Below are positions 1 through 64,000 of a DNA stretch of 64,000 nt, in pieces. Below the pieces are notes generated by a model. It had not been told where the DNA came from, made no database searches, and was given only the letters and a program-made list of their open reading frames with translations. The translations under genes and the position numbers were made by a program. Numbering within the stretch: position 1 is the first letter of the stretch; the number at the start of each line of letters is the position of its first letter. The stretch comes from Hormiphora californensis (taxonomy: Eukaryota; Animalia; Ctenophora), in NCBI GenBank assembly GCA_020137815.1, contig CM035354.1, positions 4,960,001 to 5,024,000 of the forward strand. The letters are read 5' to 3'.

Positions 1-3000
1 AGAGACTTCTTACGCTGACCAGAGCAAGTTGGTCCTTCAGTGTAACAATACCAACTATAACTTCACCTCGGAGTCCTTCAACACGGGTGTCATACCAACA
101 TGTTACGGTAAATCACAGCTGGAGTAAATTAGTATAGTGATAGCAATAATAAGTATGATGATATTGAATGAATAGTAGTACCGGGAACCAAAACTGTAGA
201 CATACATGCCTGACATAATTATATATTTTCCCGATAACTAAAATTTAATACAATACTTTTAACCTAAGATCAGGAGTGACATCTAACACTAACCTAAATT
301 ACAACTTCTCTCCCTAACTTAATAAAACACACAGATTTATGCGGGTTCAGCAGTTCCCAAAGTTATAAAAACGTCGACACGTCAATCACATCGGTCGTGG
401 TCGGTGATCCAGCCTACGAGGGTCAAGACGTATCCGGTAGCAGTTACGACGTAGCGGCGTATACCAAAGTACTAACAATATATAATCCTGCAGCATGATC
501 ATATCTTGCAGATACGTGTGCCTTGCGAACTACCAATGCGCTGAACATTGGGGAGATAACATGGCTTGTCGGAGAGACCCGGTCCCTCACCAACAATATG
601 GCAATGAGACCTGGCGAGAAAGTGAGTCACACACACAATAAAATGTCCCACTGTACACAATACATAATACACAATACACAACTGGAAGTAAAATCACAAA
701 AAACACACTACACAATCATACAGTACCAGCTCATGGTTCATGATCACCAATTTTAATTGACAATCAATTAGAACAACTGTAAAACATACACAAACGCTTG
801 AGAGTTCAAAGAGTACAAAGAGAGAGTATTCAGGGTTTATTGATTGACATTTTGAGGGTTCTGGGACCGTCCGACAGGTATCTTGCATCTCTGCTAGCAA
901 CCCCTCACACACAATCTATCTTCTAGCTATACCTTCCACTAGCTAATATAGCTATCTAACTCTCTCTATCTTTGAGCTATTACCGAATGTGATATGAAGC
1001 TGATATAAACAAATGCTAATCTGATATTTGAAGCTAAACTAACCCATATGAAGCTCGACTATAATCCCAACTTATCTGATACTGAGCTGTCTCCCTCTCT
1101 GCATGTACACAGCTATAACACTGATAATGACCGCATGACCCTGCATGAGCACATCAACCCGGGGGTTGTCATGTCTCCCACACTGCCCGGGACATGTCAA
1201 CCCCTCCTCTCTACATCTCCCCTCCCTCTCAACTAACTAACTCTGTTACCTAGGTAAAACTATCGTGTAATGACACGTCCCTGTACACCGTCAAAGGAAC
1301 GAATCTATCATACGCTGAGTATGAGTGCAACACTGATGGCGACTCTATATCCGTTCAGCCTTGCTTCAAGTACTGCAGTGTAAGTGATCAATTGGTGTTG
1401 TAACGATCTGTCCAATTATCGTGTGAGTGGTGCAGTGTGAATAGTTAAGTGTGTGACATGAGATGTGTGACATGACACCCTCTCTCACTTGGTCTCACCA
1501 CCCTCCCCTCTCCAGATCTCCGATCTGACAATGAATACCAACACCAACACGGAACCCAGTGGCAAGGCTGGGTATGGCCAGACTGTTACCTTCACCTGCT
1601 CTGGTGACTACTATCTAGGATCTAGTACGGGAGAGCAGTTCACATCCACATCTAGTGAAAATATTAGGTGCAAGTGGGCTGATAGTAGCGTCCAGGATGA
1701 TGTGGTCTTCTCCGAAACCACTGTCGCATCTACCTCTCTGTGTTATGGTACGTTTATATTGTGCTGATCCTAGGTTATAATATAGGCTATAACACTCTTC
1801 TCTCTGTTTATTATGTGGATGATCTAGTTAGGCTAATCTAGATAGTTGTTCGCTCGCGATATTCAATACTCCTGTAGTATGACGAATAATCCTCTTCTCT
1901 TTCTGCAGCTGCCCTCCAGTCGGTGTCCTCTGTGCCTGATGGTGATGGAACCTTTGTAGTCACAATCACCATGCCCAGTGACAGAGACACGTAAGTTATC
2001 ATGGCAACCAATGGAATAAGTGTTATAACAGATTCACCAACTATATTTGTGGGATATGTTAAACTAACTGTCCTGATCTCGTTTCAGGAGTGAGACTATT
2101 GACTACATCACTCTCTACACCTCCTCCGGAACTAGTCTGGGTAATGCCAGCCTGACCAGCCAAACGAGCTCTAACTCCTTCACAGTATCATACACGGATA
2201 CCAGCGATTACTCCACCCTCGATGATGCTTATGCCACCATCATTTACGCTGATGACCCCACCTACAATTCTTCTACTCTGACCTTAGTCAAGGGACCTCC
2301 CTCTGCAGATGTCTGTAAGTGCAGTTACTTCAGTATGTTACTTCAGTAGTTCGCAGTTACTTCAGTACTGTTTGATGCTGGGAACTGGTGACGACCTTTT
2401 TGTTACTCAATGCTAGTAGTTAAGGTGGATGTGCAGTAGTTGGAAACTGAAAACATGGTCCTTCAATTTTCCCTAACAGTCAACTAACCCCAATATTCCC
2501 CTTCCAGCCGTGACCTCATTCTGGTGTGGGTGTAGTGACTGTGACAATTGACAATGAAGCCGCCCTTTCATCCTATGTCTCCACTACAGACCTGTCCTAT
2601 TTCCCTGTCCGCTACAGCCACAAAAAGCAGCAAAAAGAGGAGCAGCGACTCATCAACAGTCAGCACGTGTAAGTGTGCGAGAGAAAGAAATTATGAGAGA
2701 AAGTATAGTTTTATGGCACTTTGGCCTTCTTTTTTTTATTATGACAAAACCATAACAATTCTTCTTCACATTTTACAGCGTACGTGAGTGGAACAGATAC
2801 CTACACTCTCGACTTCTCCGGACTCAGCTCCCTCTCATCATACTCTGTCGCCATGACCGTTGATGTTACTGTTGATGGTACCAGCTACAGTGGTGGATCT
2901 ACCTCCTTCGATTTCGACACCGGTAATTAACACTTTTCAAAGCTATTCTACCTGAGATGTTACTCTAGAGTTCACTGCTTTCTTGTTTGCCTACATCTTC

Positions 3001-6000
3001 ATTTTTCACCTTCTATCATCCTCACTACTTCACTATTTCACTATTTCTTCACAAGTCCAAGTGTGCAGTCAACTAGCTGTGGTTGCGCCCGTCTCCCCCA
3101 GACCTAAACCATACCCCTCTCTAATGGTTTTTCCTAGACGAGACGATTACCTTTTTATTATTTTTAGGTTTGAAATCTGTGAGGGGTCCCTTAGCTGCAG
3201 CTTTCGCTGTGTGGGACCCCTGGGTGTGTGTGATGATATTTGAAAACAAGTTTATTATAAATGTTTCCCACCCAAAATAGTTCGACCCAATAAAATTAAT
3301 TACTAATTAGATGAGGGTCAATACTACTACTAATGGGAGGTTGACCAAATCATATTTTTGAGACGTCCCCGTGCTAACATTTGTCACTCCCTCATGTGTT
3401 ACACGCCACCCTAACATGTCTCTCTCTCCCCTGCCAGGATTCCCCACACCCAGTGTCAGCACCAGTGTAACATCATCTACCTCCAACACCTTTACCATCA
3501 CCATGGGTGGCAGCCTCACCCTCAGTGGAGACTACAACACCACCGTGAGTTATATCATGGGTGATATAGTAGTTACCATGGGTGATATAGTTACCATGGT
3601 TACCGCCATGGTTACTATGAAGTGTGTTACACTAACTCAATACCCTCCCCAGATTGATGGAACTACCTATGAATTAACCTACACTGATGGAGTGGCTACT
3701 AAACTCCTGACCGACCTCACAGCCCTGGAATCCTACACCTATGACGTCACCATGACCAGCACCACTGATGTCGTGTCCGACGCTGTTTCAGTGACATTCA
3801 CTCAGGGACCCACTGAGCCTAATGTGACAGGCAGCACAATCACTGATACCAGCTTCAACATTGTATGGATACATACTAGCGAGAATGCTTATTCTCTTAC
3901 AATCTACAAGAAGCTAGACACAGGTATTATTATACGGGTGACATAAACATATTAGATTGACTCATGTCTCGTGTGGGCTGTGGGGAGATGTATTTATTTA
4001 CAGATGAAACAAAACAGGGCATGGTATTCTATAGCTGCTTTTATACACCTCACATTTCCAGGTGATTACTCCGAGGTTGGATCTCACTCTATCTCCGCTA
4101 CCGAGACGATCAATACCCACACTTTCACCGACCTCGAGGCTGGGGAGACCTACAAGATCGTTATTGACGCTGAGATGGAGGTCAGCGGGGTCAACATCAA
4201 GAGCGCAGAGACGAGCATCGAGGAACAACTATGTAAGTATTATAGACACGTCCCTCAATCAGACGGTTACCATGGTTACCAATCAGATATTAGTTACCAT
4301 GGTTACCGGTGGATAGCAGTTACCCACTCACATATTGCCATCATAATGCATATTATGTTTTCACTATTAGATCCTACAACTTACCATACTACCCCTGTAT
4401 CTAGATTCGTGTACTCGTGAAGATAAGTCTGCGTACACCCTGTACTACAAGAACGGCGGTCAGGTGGTCACTGCGGACTACTTCTACGCTGATTCCAGTG
4501 TCATCTACATTGTCGAGTGTCCGGTAAATATATACACGCCTTTTTTACTGCTAACCCCTCACTTGGATGGGTTGAACTGTACTCTTGGGATGCTGGACCC
4601 CCTCACTTCATCTAATCCACGATAAAAGCTGTTCAAACTCATCGTTACCATGGTTACAACATTATCCTTTCAGGCGAACCAGTCCTTTAAGACAGTGGAC
4701 TCCACCTACGACAACGAGACTTCATGTATCGGGGCCGAGAGTTGGTCCACTCATAGTGATTGTCAGGATACCGCAGGTATAAATGAAATGAGCGAGAGAT
4801 GGAGAGAGATATAATTGAGATGAATTATATCTAGTGGTTACAGGAGAGATCATATCCAGATTAAGATCTAACCCACTTGATCAACCCACTCTAACAACAG
4901 CTAACACACATACTATAGAGCCGGAGAAGGTGATTGATGAAGGGTCTGATGTGGTTGTTGGCATTGTGTTAGGTATCCTTGCAGTGCTTATCATTGTAGG
5001 AATCATTCTGATCCTCATATACAAGAGAAACAAAGAGTAAGTGTGTGTGTTGTGTTTTATTAACGCACACACACACGCACAAGAGAGATAGGGAGTCAGA
5101 GTGAAGTTTGGGATGCTAAAAAACTTACTACATAAAACGTCATGTCGTATTGTAGTCAAATAATGAATTGTAACAGGAATAAGTTGTCTATAGTAAAAAC
5201 TAATAAACTAACAGTAAATCTTATAGATGAGGTATCAAACCCGACGGATAATACTGCAACTGTAACTGGAATAATAATAGCGATTATAGTAATTCTGATA
5301 ATAATTATCATCATAATTATCCTAATTAAAAGAAGGTTAATTAAGTAACATGTAAACTGCATGTGTTAAACAAAATGTCAATGTGCCCGTGCCGTTCTTT
5401 TAACTGTGCTATTAACTTACCATCTGACAGACAAACAAATAAACAAACTTACCATCTGACACGACTGACAGACACTTATTCGACCTTCTCTCTTCGAAGG
5501 GCTAGAACATGCAGACACAATTATACAGCTTAGTAAATCTGATACAACCTTGCGAACTTACTCAATACCTACTACTTACACGATAACTATAATAAAGTAC
5601 TGGCCATGCTTTACCTAGTTGACACGTCTCCTTAGGATTGGCGCTAGGATTGTATAGACCACCATCTTTCTAGGTAGATCGACTGATAGACATAGCGTAT
5701 AGTTACAATCTAAGCTACTAGGCATCACACAAGGACTCAGTGTGTCATTTGTAAAAGAGATCAATGAGCAAATAAATTAATATTTTGATTTTTGGCAGTG
5801 ATCACACAAATTCGCACTATATAATTTGAGTTGTTCACGTATACATGATTTGTTACACATGTCCCCACATTGCTTCAGAAGCGTCTACCAGTGATTCTGG
5901 GAATGCGGCAGCAGTGACTGGGATTATAGTAGCAATTATAATATTGCTAATATTCCTTGTCGTCCTAATCGTCCTAATTGACCGAAGAAGGTTTTTAAAC

Positions 6001-9000
6001 ATGAAGATAATGATGGTCATGTATAATCTTCGCATGTCGATATATATATATGTGTGGATGTGTGTGTCTTTGAGTACCCATGAAACATGATTAGGAGTAG
6101 GTCCGCAACTACAGGATACCGGGTTTTAGAATATCAAAATCCTATTCGCTAGATTTAAGATAACACAAACACTGAACAAAGCATGTAAAACACTTTTAAA
6201 ATTTAACATTTCAGCAGCAATGAGCTCTGGTGAAGTAGCGGGGATAGTGGTCGGGGTTGTATTGGCAATAGTTGTCATTGCCTTGGTCGTACTGGCCATT
6301 GTAATCATGATTAGGTAGATAGAACACAGCACAGGATCTATACAATCTCTATTATAGCCTGGAATCTATACAACTCTCTCTTATATAGGCGCAAAGTTTA
6401 CTAAACTATAATATACCTGGGGCTCTTCGACGAAACTTTAAACACACTTAATAAATAAGCTCTCTTTAGAGTTACACAAGGAAAATTTTTCAGACTTGTC
6501 TCGAGAGGGGTGTCGTCGAACGCTTTCCAAAACCTCACTTTAGGTCCTTGGTGTGAACCACGTGTATACCACGTGAATCCCCGGATCACCCCTCGTGTAT
6601 GGGTGTAGAAAACCAATCAGGGGATCGAAAATGGACACGTGATAGGATTTCCATTACATGGGTTTACACAGGCGTCAATTTGGTCACGTGTAGGGTTCAC
6701 CAGCCAATAGTGTTAGCGAGATATCACACCAGATTGGGCGTGAAGAAGAAGTTTGACTTCCATTTCTCAAGATTCAAGAAATTTCAAATCTTCAAAACTC
6801 TGTGTACTCTTACAGTAGCTGGCAATGAATGTTATAGCGGACAAATAGAGATCTAACATTGATTGTTCGCATTTTGAAAAATCAATAAACCTATACACTA
6901 ATAACTTAAGCAATATTATTTAGGCCGGGTGAGATGAATAGATAGGCTGCTAGATGAAGAGATAAACAGTGAAAGTATAGTAGTAGTTCACTGTTCATCT
7001 TGTCCTGCCAGAAGGAAAACAACTGAATTCATCCACATCTTATCTGACTGTGAGAGTCTAATACAGATGGTGTATGCAGTATGGGCTTGGCTGAAACCCC
7101 AAACTAGTGCCTCAATATTGTGGTTGAGTAGAGATAGCTAACTGGGGGACAAGGAGTGCCATTTTATCTTTTTTCTACATGCGAGAAGCAAAATATACAC
7201 TGTTTTGTTGCATTTTTTACTTGCCAGCGCTGTCTTGTCTACCATTAAGTCTCCTCTGGAGGAGACTTAACAAATCTCACTTTTCTCGATATTTGAGTGA
7301 GATATTGCGTGAACTATGACGTCATTGTCGCTTCAATTTGGCCCAAATCACGTGATTTTACCACGTGATTAGGGGGTTACGCAAGGTTTGGAGAGCTTGT
7401 GTAAAACTTCACTTACTACCCCTCAATTTTCACTAAGCAAGATTTCTAAAAAGTTTCGTCGACACAAACCATGCTTAAGGGGTGTGAAAATCAATTAGAA
7501 GGTGTGAAAGGAGAGTTACGCAACGTTTTTAAGTGTGCTTAAAGTTTCGTCGAAGAGCCCCTGATCAGTACTCTATCCTGATCAGCACTAACTTTTAAAA
7601 ACTTACTGAACAATTTGGCCAATTATGGAGTCAACGAATTCTTGGGCTTGATGATCTTCTAATAGGAAATATATTATCGTTTATTCAACAGACGAAATTG
7701 ACTAATTGATATCTGACTGGACAATTATATCTTTACATATTTGCATGGTGTAATGTACACTGTTTGTATATCTTGTATCTGTTTCAGCATCTGAACTTTG
7801 AATGTTACTACTTTTCTTGACAACATGTTGTCAGATATATGGGTCCTATCTCCAAATATCTGACAATATCAAATGAGCATGCCCAAACAACTTCTCTCTC
7901 TCTTTGTCTTTTCTTGTGCGTGTGTGTGCGTGTTGTAGGGGGACTTGACATAGTGATGTTAAAGTTCCCCCCGGCATGTGACAAGAATCATGGGACTCTT
8001 GATCCTATAATTCTTACTGAGAATAGCATGAACAAAGGCCGTGGTTGCTGGTCTCTGATTTTCTCTCAAGACCTTTCATTTGCCCCCTCCCTCCCTGTCC
8101 CTCCCCCAAGATCTTGCAAGATCACACCCCACGGCCACCCTCTACAAGACACCATGGTAACCCCAAGACGCCATGGTAACGGCCCACTCTCTTTAAGAGA
8201 CCAGCCCAACCCCTCTTCAAGAGACCAGCAACCATGTCAACTGACAATCACGCTCTACCCAGCACACCCAGTTACACACTTTATTGGATCCCAATCATAG
8301 ATCTGATAAGTCTGTAACCATGGTTACCACTCACTCACCCCTGTATAACAGCTGAGTGAGTGGTACTGCTGCAGGAGGGTACCATATATCTTTCAGTACA
8401 TCTAATGTCCCTCCCCCTCTAAACAGGAAAGGAAACCCCAACTCCAATGCATACTCGCCCCGAGATGAGGAACGCAACCAAGAGTAAGTTAAACTTAAAA
8501 TACTTTTTTGTACTTTTAATTCTGGTGTACTTTATGTACTTTTAGTTGATTGAGACTGCTGCACGATGTACTTCTGGTTTGATAAGAGTGGTTGCCATGG
8601 GCGTGCACTGCACCATGTAACCATGGAAACCGTTGATTAACCGTTGCATCCCCTGGTAACCATGGAAACCACGGATTAACCGTTGCATCCCCCTGTAGGG
8701 TAGAGGGAGGTGAAGCCTGGAAGAACCCCTACTACCACGAAGACGATAACAAGTAGGGAAACTGTTTGTTTTTGTTTGTGTTAAGCTGCGTCCATTAATC
8801 ACCCATAATTATCCCTCTAGACTAGACCCTATCTCTTTATTTGTGTTTACTGTTTATGCATAAACACGATTTGTGCATCCAATCACCCTTTAAATGGTAT
8901 AGCTGTTATAGTCCGTATCTAGGTAGCTGTAGTTTATGAGGATGTGTGTGAATGCGTTGTGCGTGGAGCATTATCTAGCTTTGTGGCCTCATAACAACTC

Positions 9001-11003
9001 GGCAGCACGATTGTGTAATAATTAGTTGGTTTCCTAATTAATTAATTAATTGTCTAATAACACACCAGGCCCATTAATGAGAATGAAGTGATTTTAACCT
9101 CACTAAGAGAGGGTAATAACGGATACGGCACAGCTCCGTATAATAACGAACAGTCGGCTACATTTGAGTGTGACGACACTAGCCTCCCTCTCAGGGAGGA
9201 AGAGGAGGAAGATAGAGAGTAAGGGCAGCTGCAGTGACTGCTAGCTGGGTGCAGCATAATAGAGAGAGTGCTACAGATATGCAGGGAGTCAGAATTGTCA
9301 TTAAGAAGCATATTTAGCGGCTATAAAGCGGTCATGAATCATTCCAATGCTCAGGCTACTAGCTAATCAATTAACATTAGCACAGGAGCTGTCCCTGATA
9401 AAATTAATAAGTGCCGTATATGTGTGTGAAACAGCTATAGGTGGCGAACAACCCTAATTCTTAAAAAGGGAAACCAGTGCCCCAAAACACTATATCCTCT
9501 CAACTGTGTGCTACACCCCCTCTTTACCGTGTGCTACACCCCCCCTCTTTACACTACTCAGGAAGGAGCCTGAAGATGTGCCCCTACCCATGCCCGAGTA
9601 CAATACCCCAAAACCCCCGCCCCCGGTGGAGTACAATGAGGTCGCTGAGCTGCCTCCACCTGCCCCTGAAGAACCTGAGCCTGAGCCTGAGCCTGAATTT
9701 GAACCGGTCGTGAAGTAAGGGCCCCACCCATGATGTGATGCATGGTCTGCATGGTGCATGGAACTATAATAGGGTCATTATTATACCACTGACTCTATAG
9801 TATTTGGCCCCGCACAGAGTCAGAAATTAACATGACCTGCGAACCCCCCCCCCCTTCCCCTCAGAGTTTTGACAACTACATCCTGACAACTAAATTACAT
9901 TTAAACAATTTGACAATGACTGACAATGACATACTTGATCCTACGCAGGTCCAAGATCAGTAGTATTGTTGACTTGACTGACTATGACGACAGGGTGTTA
10001 ATTAACCCCAAAAAGACGTAAGAACATCGAGAGAGATTTGAGACCCCATTCCCAAAAAATATTACTCTTTAGTATTTAGTTTGGTAACATCTCTCCTTGT
10101 GCACGGAAAGGCACCCCATTACTAAGGGACCTGCTAAAACACACTAGATACTGGCATGCTATATTGAACCCTATAGTGGCTGAGATTAGATATCCTATCA
10201 ATGCGCCTGTTAACAGACATATATTCTCGAAGGAGCTTTATACATTCTGAACCTGCATCCCCCATGTATTGTGATGTTCTCACTGGGCTGCATTATGATA
10301 TCCCCTAACAACATATCCCCTTCACCCAGGAGTAGTCCAGATATCCCTGCAGTGCCTGATAATAGGGAGGCCCCGGACACGCCGCCACCAGCCCCTCCTG
10401 CCGATAACGTATCACAGGTTAGTACTATATAATAGTTCTATCTTTTTACCCTCTCACTCCGCGCTCCTCTTTTACAAATGTAAAGGAGGGTCACCATATC
10501 AGTGCGAACTAGTTCTATCTAGGAGCTGGGCCTCTGTGATCACGTCCCCCTCACACAGGGCCATGGCCAAGTTCTATATCTTCTAGACAGGGCTGCTCTG
10601 AGTCTGCTAAACGTGTAGCTCTTAGACTGAGGCTGGAAGACGTGTTTGTTTAGCACAGCCCATGATATCTCTAGACGACATTCTATCTGATCTAATTTCA
10701 AAGACGGCATTTAGTCTGAATTCCGAATATGATTGCATTTCGAATTCACGCTGAATTTCTGCTAGTTCTGTTGTCTCCTTCCCCGCTCTGTCCCCTCTCT
10801 AAACCCCATTCTACGCCTCTCTCTCCCCTCTCTAAACCCCATTCTACACCTCTCTCTCCCCCTCTCTAAACCCCATTCTACACCCCCCCAACTCCCCTCT
10901 CTAAACCCCATTCTAAACCCAGGGAGGTGAGATGACGTTTGATGACGACGAGCCAGAGGCCGATACCGTCATAGAGAACAGAAATGCAGGGAACAACGTG
11001 TAA
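1..11003 (+). CDS. Multi-exon type-I transmembrane receptor (5' end outside window): Sushi/CCP-like repeats, 3-4 FN3-like beta domains, a membrane-proximal Sushi-like domain, TM and a Tyr/Pro-rich cytoplasmic tail
   Basis: Hand-assembled GT-AG exons: <1-107, [335-468 or 512-621], 1254-1379, 1516-1747, 1909-1990, 2088-2314, 2508-2668 (2 apparent extra T), 2779-2922, 3438-3544, 3653-3923, 4062-4232, 4405-4523, 4674-4776, [TM 4919-5036 / 5227-5335 / 5879-5990 / 6215-6314], 8427-8483, 8699-8752, 9069-9218, 9562-9714, 9949-10017, 10330-10417, 10923-11003 (..NAGNNV*). Phases are consistent except at 2508-2668. Sushi-like motifs: GQTVTFTC..IRCKW..C and PGEKVKLSC. FN3-like motifs: FTDLEAGETYKI, LTDLTALESYTY, FSGLSSLSSYSV. 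Confidence 0.85.
335..468 (+). CDS. Alternative Sushi N-half exon a (DLCGFSSSQSYKNVD...YDVAAYTK)
   Basis: acacag| acceptor, AAA|gtacta donor, phase 1 to 0, 134 nt; joins in frame to the VKLSC exon at 1254. Confidence 0.7.
512..621 (+). CDS. Alternative Sushi N-half exon b (DTCALRTTNALNIGEITW...MRPGEK)
   Basis: ttgcag| acceptor, AAA|gtgagt donor, phase 1 to 0, 110 nt; gives PGEK-VKLSC with exon 1254. Confidence 0.75.
4919..5036 (+). CDS. Alternative TM exon A (EPEKVIDEGSDVVVGIVLGILAVLIIVGIILILIYKRNKE)
   Basis: ctatag| ... GA|gtaagt, phase 1 to 2, hydrophobic helix plus basic stop-transfer residues. Confidence 0.85.
5227..5335 (+). CDS. Alternative TM exon B (DEVSNPTDNTATVTGIIIAIIVILIIIIIIIILIKRR)
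   Basis: ttatag| ... AG|gttaat, phase 1 to 2. Confidence 0.75.
5879..5990 (+). CDS. Alternative TM exon C (EASTSDSGNAAAVTGIIVAIIILLIFLVVLIVLIDRRR)
   Basis: cttcag| ... AG|gttttt, phase 1 to 2. Confidence 0.75.
6215..6314 (+). CDS. Alternative TM exon D (AAMSSGEVAGIVVGVVLAIVVIALVVLAIVIMIR)
   Basis: tttcag| ... AG|gtagat, phase 1 to 2; not in the supplied + strand ORF track. Confidence 0.8.
6417..7563. mobile_element. Non-autonomous TIR DNA transposon (~1.15 kb, hAT-like CAGGGG termini) in the intron after the TM cluster
   Basis: ~33-bp inverted termini C(T/A)GGGGCTCTTCGACGAAACTTTAA.CACACTTAA; no clear TSD and no transposase ORF. Confidence 0.7.
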
Positions 11004-14804: not shown

Positions 14805-15736
14805 TCAGTTTTCTGCAAAACGGGGCTTCATCAGTCCATATTACGTCGGTATTACAGGTCCTCTCAGAGACACCGTCTAGCACGTGTTTCTTCTGGCAGT
14901 TGATGGTCACCGTCTCTCCAGGATCAGTATCGTCCCAAGTTCCTTGGACAGATCCATCAACGGTAAACCCAGGACACGCTGATGATCAAAAGAAATGGTG
15001 TTTAGATATTGTAGGATACAGCTAATTGTCATAATCATTGAATAGCTAGGTACTGCATGAAGTGAGATTAATAACTACTTCGTACCTGTTGGCATTGCAC
15101 GGTAGCTGTCTGATGCATTGTCATATGCTGTGTTGGAACTAAATTGTATCTTCTCCACAACATCTCCCCTCCACCTTGGTTCACATGTTTTGTCAGTAAT
15201 GTCACTGAACTTGTGGTGCAGGACCTCCACCTCGTTACAAACTATGATCAGATCAGTAGCTGTCTTTCGAATGGTCCAAATCTTGTCCACTTCATCTGGT
15301 GGTTGTACTGGGAAGGCATACCAGCTCATGTCACAGTAGCCGATGAAGTATTTGATGGGTGAGTGGAACTTCAATCGTACTCCTCCAACTAATCCCTGTT
15401 CTGTTTCATCTTTAGTATGGGTAAACATCACGAAAAGATCCCCGTCCCCGGTAGTAGAGTCGGTTTTTATTTGAAAGGGGTGCTCTCTAGATCATGTGTG
15501 ATGAATGTACCGCGTTCAACTGGAATCCACACTGAAACAATACATAGGAGTGTAATTAACCTTACTCGATCGAATAATTTCGATTTACACTGAACTACGT
15601 GAACACTGAATTAACTACGTGAGCTATGAATTACCAATAGTGAACATATAATGGATATTTGCAAATACTTGTACCGACCTGTTGGAGTGACAGAATGAAT
15701 CAGCAGAACAACAAAGAGCAATCGCTTGAGAAACAT
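14805..15736 (-). CDS. Secreted protein: signal peptide, uncharacterised beta-rich domain (DLES.P.QIKTDS...DKIWTIRKT...CNEVEVL...ASDSYR) and a Sushi/CCP domain; last exon(s) not resolved
   Basis: Exons 15736-15679 (MFLKRLLFVVLLIHSVTPT), 15531-15086 (1-nt frameshift near 15475) and 14978-14805 (CPGF...PGETVTINC..HVLDG..RTC..W..APFC); all introns phase 1. Confidence 0.75.
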
Positions 15737-26294: not shown

Positions 26295-59408
<33,114 letters not shown>

Positions 59409-61304
59409 GTATGTTAGATCACATGCTCCCAGCCCCCAGCCTCACAGCCGTCCCGTTACACCTCGCATCAGGCCCAGGTATGTTAGATCACATGCTCCCA
59501 GCCCCCAGCCCCACAGCCGTCCCGTTACAACTCCCATCAGGCCCAGGTATGTTAGATCACATGCTCCCAGCCCCCAGCCCCACAGCCGTCCCGTTACACC
59601 TCGCATCAGGCCCAGGTATGTTAGATCACATGCTCCCAGCCCCCAGCCCCACAGCCGTCCCGTTACAACTCCCATCAGGCCCAGGTATGTTAGATCACAT
59701 GCTCCCAGCCCCCAGCCCCACAGCCGTCCCGTTACACCTCGCATCAGGCCCAGGTATGTAAGATCACATGCTCCCAGCCCCCAGTCCCACAGCCGTCCCG
59801 TTACACCTCGCATCAGGCCCAGGTATGTGAGGTTTAGTATATAGTCGCCTATAGTGGCCTAGCAAATGGCCCTAATAACGGGAAATACATTTCTATCTTA
59901 TTAAGAAGCATTGCCCTGCAGGAACCTTCAATTGTGCGTGCATCTACATGACCGATCACAGCTGCCATTGTCGCTACATACATCTGAAAGGTTTAGTTGT
60001 ATGCAGCGAGTGGTGTAGAGCTTACTAGGTGACTGGGTGAAAAGATCGGAACAAGCACACATCAATAGAACGCATAGGAATCTTTCTCAAGGATTGAGCA
60101 ACTAGAGCGATAGAGTGGATCTAAGATGTAGCTTAGACGTCATTCGAGCGTGATCAGCCAAGTATATCGTGAAACATCTTTTTTTGGTCAAAACTTGATT
60201 GTGCAATATTCAGCTATTATAGCTGTGCTTCCATGGAATCTAGCACAAAAAGCCTTTGATCAGTTTTTTTTTGTATTTGCAAACTGAAGCTGTAGGTTAT
60301 ACCTTACTCTCGTTAATTAAGCTCGTATATTTCAAGAAACTTTTAAATAAGAAACTTTTTTTCTAGGAAACTACAGGTGTAGGCAATCCAAAAACAAAAA
60401 GAATTTCTCCTTTATCAAGAAACTAAACAAGTTAGGGGTGTTCTATTTTATTGTGGTGTCTGTGAATTGTGTGATTTACATTTGAAAAGTTTCTTATAAA
60501 AAAGTTTCTCACTAAAGCGTTTCTTAAAAAACGAAAGTAAGGTATGTTATGTTGCAAAGGGGTGCGGAGAGAGAGAGGGTCTAAAAAGACAAAGCTGTAG
60601 GTCAGCGTCAGCGTCAGCACTCAGCAGGTCACGGCCTGATCTTAGATCTATGTCCAAAGATGTGAAAAAACCAAACTACAGCGCGTCGACACATGCAGTT
60701 TGGTTTTGTTACTCTCGAACAAATAAAGTTGCTAGATAAGAGTTAGAAGTGCCCTAATTTCAAATTTTGACTTAAATCTCAATTCGAGTAATATTTCGGG
60801 TATAATATGCGTATGCACAGTCTCGCCGGCTAGGATTCATAGTTGGAGATAATATTAATATCAGGCTTATGAGCTTAACCGTTGTTGATGACCGTTTAAA
60901 AGTTGAATCTTATTGAGGACACTAGTTATTGCAATATAAGACCAATAATCTCGAAGTCGAACAATAGTGATTTACAGAACAAATTGGCAGTGCGGCAAAT
61001 GAGATAATCTTATTGAGATTAGGCAAAAAGTCAAGTATAATATTGGTAGTATCAAACCTCAGTTCCTTTTTCGCCTGACTCTTCTTGTTGAGAAGAAACT
61101 TTAGCTGTCTCGTAACATACAATGCACAGCAAATAGCCCATGTAACGTTATTACAGGAGCACGTATAATATATTGCTCCACCGGTATTTAATAAATCAAG
61201 ACCGCGGTAATATATTAACATGTGCGCTACACACCTGTCTCTGTTACCCAATATAAACCTAGAGGCCTCAATGGATCGATCATTACATGTTGTCATCAAC
61301 ACAC

Positions 61305-62825: not shown

Positions 62826-64000
62826 CTTGATTTACTCCATCTCTCAGCTTACCTACATCCCATTTACTCCATATCTCAGCTTCCCTACCTCCCATTTACT
62901 CCATCTCTCAGCTACCCTAGGGAAGCTGAGAGATGAAGTAAATGGGAGGTAGGAAAGCTGAGAGATGGAGTAAATGGGTGGTAGGGTAGCTGAGAGATGG
63001 AGTAAATGGCAGGTAGGGAAGCTGAGGGATGGAGTAAATGGGAGGTAGGTAAGCTGAGAGATGGAGTAAATGGGAGGTAAGGTATTAGGGAAGCATAGAG
63101 ATGGAAACGATTAGGGGTAGGGAATCCCTATCCATAATCGTTTCCATCTCTATGCTTCCCTAGCCCTCATCAACTCCATCTTTCAGCTACCCTACCCCTA
63201 ATCTAGTCCATCTCTCCGCTACCCTACTCCTCATCTACTCCATCTCTCAGCTTCCCTACCTCCCATTTACTCCATCTCTCAGCTTACCTACATCCCATTT
63301 ACTCCATATCTCAGCTTCCCTACCTCCCATTTACTCCATCTCTCAGCTACCCTACCTCCCATTTACTTTATCTCTCAGCTTCCCTACCTCCCATTTACTC
63401 CATCTCTCAGCTTCCCTACCTCCCATTTACTCCACCGCTTACCTTCCCTACCTCCCATTTACTCCATCTCTCAGCTTCCCTACCTCCCATTTACTCCATC
63501 TCTCAGCTACCCTACCTCCCATTTACTCCATTTCTCAGCTTCCCTACCTCTCATTTACTCCATCTATCAGCTACCCTACCTCCCATTTACTCCATCTCTC
63601 AGCTTACCTACCTCCCATTTACTCCATCTCTCAGCTTCCCTACCTCCCATTTACTCCATCCCTCAGCTACCCTACCTCCCATTTGATCCACCTCTCAGCT
63701 TCCCTACCTCCCATTTACTCCATCCCTCAGCTACCCTACCTCCCATTTGATCCATCTCTCAGCTTCCCTACCTCCCATTTACTCCATCTCTCATTTATCC
63801 TAACATTCCTACCCCTGAGAGATGGAGTAAATGGGAGGTAGGGAAGCTGAGAGATGAAGTAAATGGGAGGTAGGAAAGCTGAGAGATGGAGTAAATGGGT
63901 GGTAGGGTAGCTGAGAGATGGAGTAAATGGCAGGTAGGGAAGCTGAGGGATGGAGTAAATGGGAGGTAGGGAAGCTGAGAGATGGAGTAAATGGGAGGTA
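62826..64000. repeat. 32-bp minisatellite with three strand inversions
   Basis: Unit TACTCCATCTCTCAGCTTCCCTACCTCCCATT; orientation switches near 62917, 63125 and 63812. Confidence 0.9.

What the first reader, a model, noticed from the sequence alone, without database searches (positions are those of the whole stretch)
8427..10017. Modular cytoplasmic tail of five symmetric phase-2 cassette exons carrying different Tyr motifs
Seen: exons of 57, 54, 150, 153 and 69 nt are all multiples of 3 and phase 2-2, so any can be skipped in frame. They encode NSNAYSP, WKNPYY (NPxY), GYGTAPYNN plus an acidic stretch, EYNTP (YxxP) plus VEYNEV and poly-Pro, and TDYDD. VEYNEV fits the ITIM consensus (I/V/L/S)xYxx(L/V). 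The length pairs 57/54 (NAYS vs NPYY) and 150/153 hint at further either/or pairs. Inference: endocytic/PTB, SH2/SH3-adaptor or phosphatase-recruiting outputs can be chosen by splicing.
Basis: partly seen in the sequence, partly recalled or inferred. Interest (0 to 1): 0.7.

Follow-up and report, generated by a model that had tools for sequence, protein, structure and literature searches.

The report
Receptor choosing among four membrane anchors
A marine animal's cell-surface receptor gene splices in one of four alternative membrane anchors and skips some of its tail segments, which likely changes where the receptor goes and which partners it recruits; only part of the proposed five-module tail holds up.

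Summary
They are not five free cassettes. RNA contigs from two marine runs join the first two exons (A, B), and a 39%-identical relative keeps both, with the NPxY motif conserved, so they are a fixed core and not an either/or pair. C is skipped in both runs and E in one; neither was seen included. C looks coding, E does not. D, with the ITIM-like match, is included, but is absent from the relative's transcript and probably skipped in part of one run. The ITIM match has a 17% chance rate. The stronger feature lies just upstream: four transmembrane exons, each joined in RNA to the same upstream exon and to A, never to each other; any two together give an early stop. Predicted intron pairings fit a docking-site mechanism, untested. 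It works like the membrane and tail end of arthropod Dscam, with four anchors instead of two, in a fibronectin-III/Sushi-like receptor not shown to be a Dscam. Lineage is probably ctenophore (recalled, not tested).

The parts
1..4776 (+). Ectodomain exons (Cys-containing Sushi-like units and fibronectin-III-like repeats); the gene starts upstream of the window. The last common exon before the cluster is 4674-4776.
   Evidence: RNA joints and pieces; X1 record 1 has 898 letters before window position 1; weak Pfam Sushi E 0.11 and fn3 E 0.037; relative P0002 fn3 E 2e-9
4919..5036 (+). TM1, alternative transmembrane exon, 118 nt, phase 1-2
   Evidence: one X1 contig spans upstream exon, TM1 and A (record 2); phase
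5227..5335 (+). TM2, alternative transmembrane exon, 109 nt, phase 1-2, Ile-rich
   Evidence: X2 joints on both sides, record 7; 4 of 4 listed RNA differences synonymous
5879..5990 (+). TM3, alternative transmembrane exon, 112 nt, phase 1-2
   Evidence: one X1 contig spans upstream exon, TM3 and A (record 3)
6215..6314 (+). TM4, alternative transmembrane exon, 100 nt, phase 1-2
   Evidence: X2 joints 4773-6212 and 6312-8425
5041..5109 (+). Predicted switch element behind TM1: a local hairpin next to the TM1 donor, or a selector pairing with 7887-7936
   Evidence: hairpin -26.7 kcal/mol, z -3.4; long-range duplex -61 to -64 kcal/mol; prediction only
6316..6362 (+). Predicted proximal docking site pairing with 5041-5062 (behind TM1) and 5640-5661 (behind TM2)
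   Evidence: -23.2 kcal/mol each, 0 of 25 shuffles; behind TM3 not significant, 5 of 25; site chosen after looking
7887..7936 (+). Predicted distal docking site; pairing with 5060-5109 would loop out TM2-TM4
   Evidence: best of 78 intron pairs; best of 145 tiles; 2 of 122 matched null pairs as strong
8427..8483 (+). Tail exon A, 57 nt, phase 2-2; present in every RNA path seen; conserved YSPRDEE
8699..8752 (+). Tail exon B, 54 nt, phase 2-2; present in every RNA path seen; conserved W-x-NPYY (NPxY)
   Evidence: 3 of 3 RNA differences in its last 28 letters synonymous
9069..9218 (+). Tail exon C, 150 nt, phase 2-2; skipped in both runs; probably a rarely included cassette (YxN motif, acidic end)
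   Evidence: joint 8752-9562 in X1 and B letters before 9562 in X2; coding-like
9562..9714 (+). Tail exon D, 153 nt, phase 2-2; included in RNA, probably optional; Pro-rich with two EYN sites, the second fitting the ITIM consensus
   Evidence: absent from P0002; internal 24-nt repeat at 33-nt spacing
9949..10017 (+). Candidate tail exon E, 69 nt, phase 2-2; skipped in X2; doubtful
   Evidence: joint 9714-10330; codon score not above intron null
10330..10417 (+). Tail exon F, 88 nt, phase 2-0, Pro-rich; partly conserved in the relative
10923..11003 (+). Last coding exon G with stop; the RNA contig runs on to 11368
   Evidence: joint 10414-10920 and record 12

Best explanation
This single-pass receptor gene splices in exactly one of four transmembrane exons, follows it with a core of exons A and B that was present in every RNA path seen, and likely varies only the middle of its tail (D often in, C rarely, E perhaps never), which would tune where the receptor is sorted and which adaptors it binds. 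Shown: one-of-four anchor choice, the A-B joint, skipping of C and E, conservation of YSPRDEE and NPxY. Inferred: D skipping in this species; exclusivity enforced by the reading frame (any two anchors give an early stop) and helped by competing intron pairings with docking sites behind TM4; NPxY as a constant PTB/endocytic signal; D as an optional SH3/SH2-adaptor platform rather than a phosphatase-recruiting ITIM; anchors differing in length and small-residue motifs as a sorting or dimerisation choice, by analogy with Dscam TM1/TM2.
For: All 8 possible flanking joints of the 4 TM exons are among the 12 joints listed, and 0 of 6 possible TM-TM joints. All 11 combinations of two or more TM exons and the no-TM form stop early. 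A-B joint in 2 of 2 informative runs; B-D in both; D-F in X2. P0002, 39% identical over 406 aa, aligns best as A-B-F for all 4 TM choices. Both ends of the X2 contig over D (28 and 28 letters) match a competing B-F path and none of the other 4 alternatives on either side. 35 of 38 codons touched by listed RNA differences are synonymous. The duplex behind TM1 is the best of 78 intron pairs, and 2 of 122 null pairs are as strong.
Against: Only two runs, both assembled contigs of mixed marine samples; each joint rests on one contig, three have a side under 30 letters, and likeness was set to 85-90, where the tool warns of other organisms. Each TM exon was seen in one run only. No B-F joint is listed; the end of the D contig is also explained by a minor allele (table 5c), and the same geometry failed at the starts of the TM2 and TM4 contigs (40 letters seen, 30 expected). 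P0002 may lack D in its genome. C was never seen included. The distal duplex is partly simple repeat, both stronger null pairs were microsatellites, there is no significant selector behind TM3, and no covariation could be tested. No binding or localisation data.
Confidence: 0.6

Rival explanations
1. One reading: five independent cassettes with either/or pairs choose between PTB, SH2/SH3 and SHP-phosphatase outputs.
For: All five are frame-neutral and motif-bearing; C, E and probably D are skipped; PECAM-1 exon 14 and crustacean Dscam tails give precedent (passages). Two shallow runs could miss rare A or B skipping.
Against: A joined to B in both runs and in the relative; none of the 15 tail exon pairs is alike; ITIM chance rate 17%, YxxP 77%; E not coding-like.
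Confidence: 0.12
2. The tail is essentially constant (A-B-D-F-G) in this species; C and E are unused pseudo-exons, the symmetry is a by-product of a disordered tail, and only the TM cluster is regulated.
For: A-B-D-F-G is the only tail path directly joined; no cover of C or E; three frame-neutral exons in a row is about a 1-in-20 event at the 37.8% 3n rate reported for unskipped Mnemiopsis exons (passage; my arithmetic).
Against: C scores as coding above 748 of 748 null windows, with in-range splice sites; the contig geometry points to a B-F path; the relative's transcript lacks D.
Confidence: 0.2
3. The four TM exons are redundant tandem duplicates chosen at random or by haplotype, with no functional difference between anchors.
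For: TM2 and TM3 are close in sequence; different runs show different pairs of anchors, and the X2 contigs branch 10 letters earlier than expected, as a haplotype link would give.
Against: All four keep open frames and splice sites and are expressed; 6 of 7 listed differences in them are synonymous and the seventh is Val to Ile; in X1, TM1 and TM3 branch exactly at the shared exon end.
Confidence: 0.25

Closest known systems
Arthropod Dscam1 membrane and tail region (Drosophila exon 17; Penaeus monodon exon 32 and optional tail exons)
   Same: Mutually exclusive TM exons followed by included-or-skipped tail exons with SH2, SH3 and Tyr motifs (PMC6851185, passages). Drosophila TM1 and TM2 target dendrites and axons (PMC9880076, passages).
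   Different: Four TM exons here against two. No Ig domain or Ig exon array found in the part of the gene inside the window. The ectodomain is Sushi-like and FN3-like.
Downstream docking-site/selector clusters (14-3-3zeta, Mhc, MRP1, Dscam exons 4, 9, 17)
   Same: A site behind the last exon is predicted to pair with introns behind earlier exons and loop out those between (PMC6071210, passages).
   Different: Only predicted here, from one genome, with two candidate docking sites, a hairpin beside the TM1 donor and no clear selector for TM3.
PECAM-1 cytoplasmic exons
   Same: Tail built from short exons; skipping exon 14 removes SHP-2 binding (PMC5664058, passages of a review).
   Different: PECAM-1 has dual ITIMs and an Ig ectodomain; here there is one consensus match, in an exon absent from the relative's transcript.
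Hydractinia Alr proteins
   Same: Non-bilaterian single-pass receptors with an Fn3-like fold, alternative TM-plus-tail exons and ITIM consensus matches (10.1101/2022.03.04.482883, passages).
   Different: In Alr the alternative TM comes with a different tail and a shorter ectodomain; here four anchors share one ectodomain and one tail.
SUSD1-like and PTPRU-ectodomain-like FN3/Sushi proteins
   Same: Nearest Atlas look-alikes of P0002 (scores 0.81-0.87, leads only).
   Different: No phosphatase domain: the tail ends at the stop at 11003. No orthology shown.

Membership tests
Mutually exclusive exon cluster (TM1-TM4) | Each exon joined to the same flanking exons, never to another member | tested here: met
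   8 of 8 flanking joints, 0 of 6 TM-TM joints; contigs of two runs only
Mutually exclusive exon cluster (TM1-TM4) | Same phases, similar length, similar sequence | tested here: met
   all phase 1-2, 100-118 nt; pairwise scores reached by at most 2 of 1000 shuffles, though any two hydrophobic runs would score well
Mutually exclusive pair A/B | Never together in one transcript | tested here: not met
   joint 8483-8699 in both runs; both present in P0002
Mutually exclusive pair C/D | Homologous exons, each used alone | tested here: inconclusive
   no likeness (225 of 1000 shuffles); D used without C, C never seen
Cassette exon C | Both skipping and inclusion joints | tested here: inconclusive
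   skipping in 2 of 2 runs, inclusion in 0; coding-like
Cassette exon D | Both skipping and inclusion joints | tested here: inconclusive
   inclusion shown; skipping only indirect and in the relative
Cassette exon E | Both skipping and inclusion joints | tested here: inconclusive
   skipping in X2, inclusion not seen; not coding-like
ITIM-bearing inhibitory receptor | [ILVS]xYxx[ILV] consensus in the tail | tested here: met
   one match, in D; 17% of 20000 shuffled tails also match
ITIM-bearing inhibitory receptor | A second ITIM or ITSM | tested here: not met
   no ITSM and one ITIM in the full tail
ITIM-bearing inhibitory receptor | Motif conserved in orthologs | tested here: inconclusive
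   the one relative found lacks D in its transcript
ITIM-bearing inhibitory receptor | Phosphorylation and SHP/SHIP binding | not testable with these tools
   needs pull-downs
NPxY PTB/endocytic motif | NPxY conserved under divergence | tested here: met
   W-x-NPYY kept in P0002 at 39% overall identity; binding untested
Dscam | Ig domains with variable exon arrays | tested here: inconclusive
   no convincing Ig hit among 18 window frames (best 'Big_14' E 0.022) or in P0002; the 5' part of the gene lies outside the window
Dscam | FN3 repeats before the membrane | tested here: met
   fn3 E 2e-9 in P0002, weak in the window; not specific to Dscam
Receptor tyrosine phosphatase | Cytoplasmic phosphatase domain | tested here: not met
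   216-aa low-complexity tail at most, ending at 11003, last exon confirmed by RNA
Docking-site/selector mechanism | One docking site complementary to a selector at every variable exon | tested here: inconclusive
   TM1 strong, TM2 moderate, TM3 not significant
Docking-site/selector mechanism | Compensatory changes across species | not testable with these tools
   no related genomic DNA found (one search gave one bacterial chance hit)

The most novel reading that the evidence does not exclude
A comb-jelly-grade animal independently evolved a Dscam-like back end: a four-way membrane-anchor choice run by a bistable intron RNA switch, multiplied by optional tyrosine-motif tail modules (up to 4 x 8 forms), that sorts one receptor to different cell types or membrane compartments.
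Probability: 0.25. Interest if true: 0.75.

Novelty: new variant of a known kind. Interest (0 to 1): 0.52.

Why it matters
The papers my searches returned describe two alternative membrane anchors, in Dscam. A four-way anchor choice backed by RNA joints, in an unrelated receptor of a probably non-bilaterian animal, would show that anchor switching and docking-site splicing arose more than once or very early. It also gives a small minigene (about 4 kb) in which both can be tested. The tail on its own is more ordinary: frame-preserving skipping is already reported as enriched in a ctenophore (76.9% against 37.8%, PMC6142364).

Tried and rejected
No whole genome is held for this window. Three word-index protein searches found nothing. 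Of 6 hits in the representative search, P0001 is a close fragment, P0002 the useful relative, P0004 and P0006 generic FN3 proteins, and P0003 and P0005 look spurious. P0001 and P0002 are single-member clusters without names. A pattern scan for exon B in metagenome contigs gave 1 locus, a bacterial chance match. Run X3 laid only 1 repeat-like record and was dropped from the second laying. Lack of cover over C, E and 512-621 is weak alone; only the joints across them count. No PDB sequence hit for P0002. Its single-sequence fold failed (mean pLDDT 37, only the TM helix confident), so no fold search was run. The Atlas gave no lineage clue for an ORF at 15075-15488. No notable pairing flanks C, D or E (about -26 kcal/mol). 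One search lost the frame at exon 2508-2668, so later translations start at 2779. Earlier-findings look-ups by place and by sequence were empty. The Dscam exon 17 paper PMC3917985 is not held; PMC12962786 gave only a reference line. Rejected: A/B either/or; tail exons as tandem duplicates (0 of 15 pairs alike); receptor phosphatase.
Full report
What is in the sequence. The region is the 3' part of a spliced animal gene on the + strand. F (10330-10417) and G (10923-11003, stop) follow. All 32 inclusion patterns read open, which follows from the geometry. The motifs are present: NPxY in B, YxN in C, YxxP and one ITIM consensus match in D. Upstream, four exons each encode a 23-26 residue apolar run: TM1 4919-5036, TM2 5227-5335, TM3 5879-5990, TM4 6215-6314. 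Each is phase 1-2. All 11 combinations of two or more, and the form with none, stop early.

RNA evidence. One search listed 3 runs; X1 and X2, marine samples of two studies, were informative, X3 was not. All are assembled contigs, so they show presence, not rates. Over 4660-10430, 12 joints were listed. Eight are the flanking joints of the four TM exons: TM1 and TM3 in X1, TM2 and TM4 in X2. None joins two TM exons. In X1 single contigs span the upstream exon, the anchor and A. A joins B in both runs. B joins D in X1, and in X2 the contig over D begins with 28 letters of B, so C is skipped in both. D joins F in X2, so E is skipped. C and E have no cover. Limits: each joint rests on one contig, three have a side under 30 letters, and likeness was relaxed to 85-90. 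The RNA differs from the window by a few percent, so it comes from other individuals or a close species. Of 38 codons touched by the differences I could read, 35 are synonymous; the tables were cut (50 rows not shown), and only 2 of 5 differences in D were listed.

Is D optional? No B-F joint is listed. The X2 contig over D starts with 28 letters of B and ends with 28 of F. With 31-letter words this is what a competing B-F path gives, and none of the 4 other alternatives on either side gives 28. The same arithmetic fits both ends of the TM1 and TM3 contigs and the end of the TM2 contig, but not the starts of the TM2 and TM4 contigs, and a minor allele of D also explains the 3' end. I put D skipping in this species at about 75%.

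Relative. The representative search gave 6 hits. P0002 (578 aa, one contig of 1785 nt) is 39% identical over 406 residues to the membrane-near part of this gene. Its tail reads A, B, then F; for all 4 anchors the A-B-F form aligns best of 6 tested. YSPRDEE in A and W-x-NPYY in B are kept; the residues before the Tyr of A are not. So A and B are an old core, and C, D and E are either skipped or absent there. No other relative was found.

Are C and E exons? With splice matrices from 21 donors and 21 acceptors, C and E score within the leave-one-out range. C's codon score exceeds all 748 overlapping stop-free null windows; E's is reached by 16% of 3368. A candidate with C's splice scores arises in 1-2% of 300 simulated introns, with E's in 4-9%. 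C is probably a real, rarely used cassette; E is open.

Motif chance. In 20000 shuffles of the 216-residue tail an ITIM match appears in 17%, NPxY in 12%, YxN in 57%, YxxP in 77%. Only NPxY has conservation behind it. The two EYN sites of D lie in a 24-nt repeat 33 nt apart, next to several PxxP sites. That this fits Nck/Crk-type adaptors better than SHP is recalled knowledge of SH2 preferences and comes from no call. None of the 15 tail exon pairs is alike, so the length pairs are not duplicate pairs.

How the anchor may be chosen. Among 78 intron pairs the strongest predicted duplex links the intron behind TM1 (5060-5109) with the last intron of the cluster (7887-7936). It is the best of 145 tiles (-61 against a mean of -28 kcal/mol); 2 of 122 matched random pairs are as strong, both microsatellites. 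Pairing would loop out TM2-TM4. The same element can fold back next to the TM1 donor (-26.7 kcal/mol, z -3.4). A second site at 6316-6362 pairs with stretches behind TM1 and TM2 (0 of 25 shuffles each) but not clearly behind TM3 (5 of 25); I chose that site after looking. This fits the downstream docking model (PMC6071210, passages) but is a prediction.

Protein family and lineage. Pfam gives only weak Sushi and fn3 hits on single frames and a firm fn3 hit on P0002. Atlas look-alikes are FN3/Sushi proteins, all under 0.9. There is no phosphatase domain. I read the animal as a ctenophore from recalled traits (intron repeats, intronless GPCRs, a domain at 15075-15491); no call confirms this.

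Comparison with print. Shrimp Dscam has two TM variants and 7 optional tail exons (PMC6851185, passages). Drosophila TM1 and TM2 go to dendrites and axons (PMC9880076, passages). PECAM-1 loses SHP-2 binding without exon 14 (PMC5664058, passages). Hydractinia Alr genes have alternative TM-plus-tail exons and ITIM matches (bioRxiv 10.1101/2022.03.04.482883, passages). A two-exon cluster is described in a Mnemiopsis myosin (PMC3912159, passages), and skipped Mnemiopsis exons are mostly frame-preserving (PMC6142364, passages). Searches for a ctenophore TM cluster or for more than two alternative anchors (listings only) found none; the 5 papers were seen as titles and abstract starts, at least 3 of them on Dscam. 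The library lacks most subscription papers, and I read no supplements.

Verdict. The tail is a fixed A-B core with one probable and two unproven optional exons; the ITIM reading is weak. The four-way anchor choice just upstream is directly supported and is the part worth following. New variant of a known kind; interest 0.52.

Noticed in passing
window 2508-2668: This ectodomain exon has two single letters more than the X1 RNA contig (near 2520 and 2596), which breaks the frame in the window: an assembly error or a broken allele.
   Followed up: partly
window 512-621: A 110-nt AG/GT-flanked Cys-containing stretch is skipped in both runs (joint 468-1254); its codon score is not above null (13%), so it is a doubtful ectodomain cassette.
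   Followed up: partly
window 6419-7561: A 1.14-kb element with 36-nt terminal inverted repeats (94%) sits in the intron behind TM4, between the two predicted docking sites; looks like a non-autonomous DNA transposon.
   Followed up: no
window 9697-9714: A minor X2 contig has 11 letters in place of 17 at the end of D, an in-frame 6-nt length polymorphism in the Pro-Glu stretch.
   Followed up: no
window 9949-10017: Candidate exon E holds an IVDLT stretch that resembles a SUMO-interacting motif (recalled consensus, not tested).
   Followed up: no
window 7940-8318: A stop-free stretch of about 125 codons (counted by eye) follows a strong pyrimidine tract and AG in the intron behind TM4; the same tract is the predicted distal docking site. 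No RNA cover.
   Followed up: no
window 40113-44901: Three consecutive frames that read like endonuclease, reverse transcriptase and RNase H parts of a non-LTR retroelement (by eye).
   Followed up: no
window 35835-37109 and 50047-51092 (- strand): Intronless-looking rhodopsin-type GPCR frames; the first hits 7tm_1 at E 1.6e-11, the second lies in two frames.
   Followed up: partly
window 15075-15491 (- strand): A 138-aa frame without Pfam hit; Atlas look-alikes are unnamed bacterial clusters at 0.92-0.93 with low shared-feature counts.
   Followed up: partly
window 45734-46879, 59194-59858, 63164-63841: Tandem repeat arrays that give long repetitive frames.
   Followed up: no
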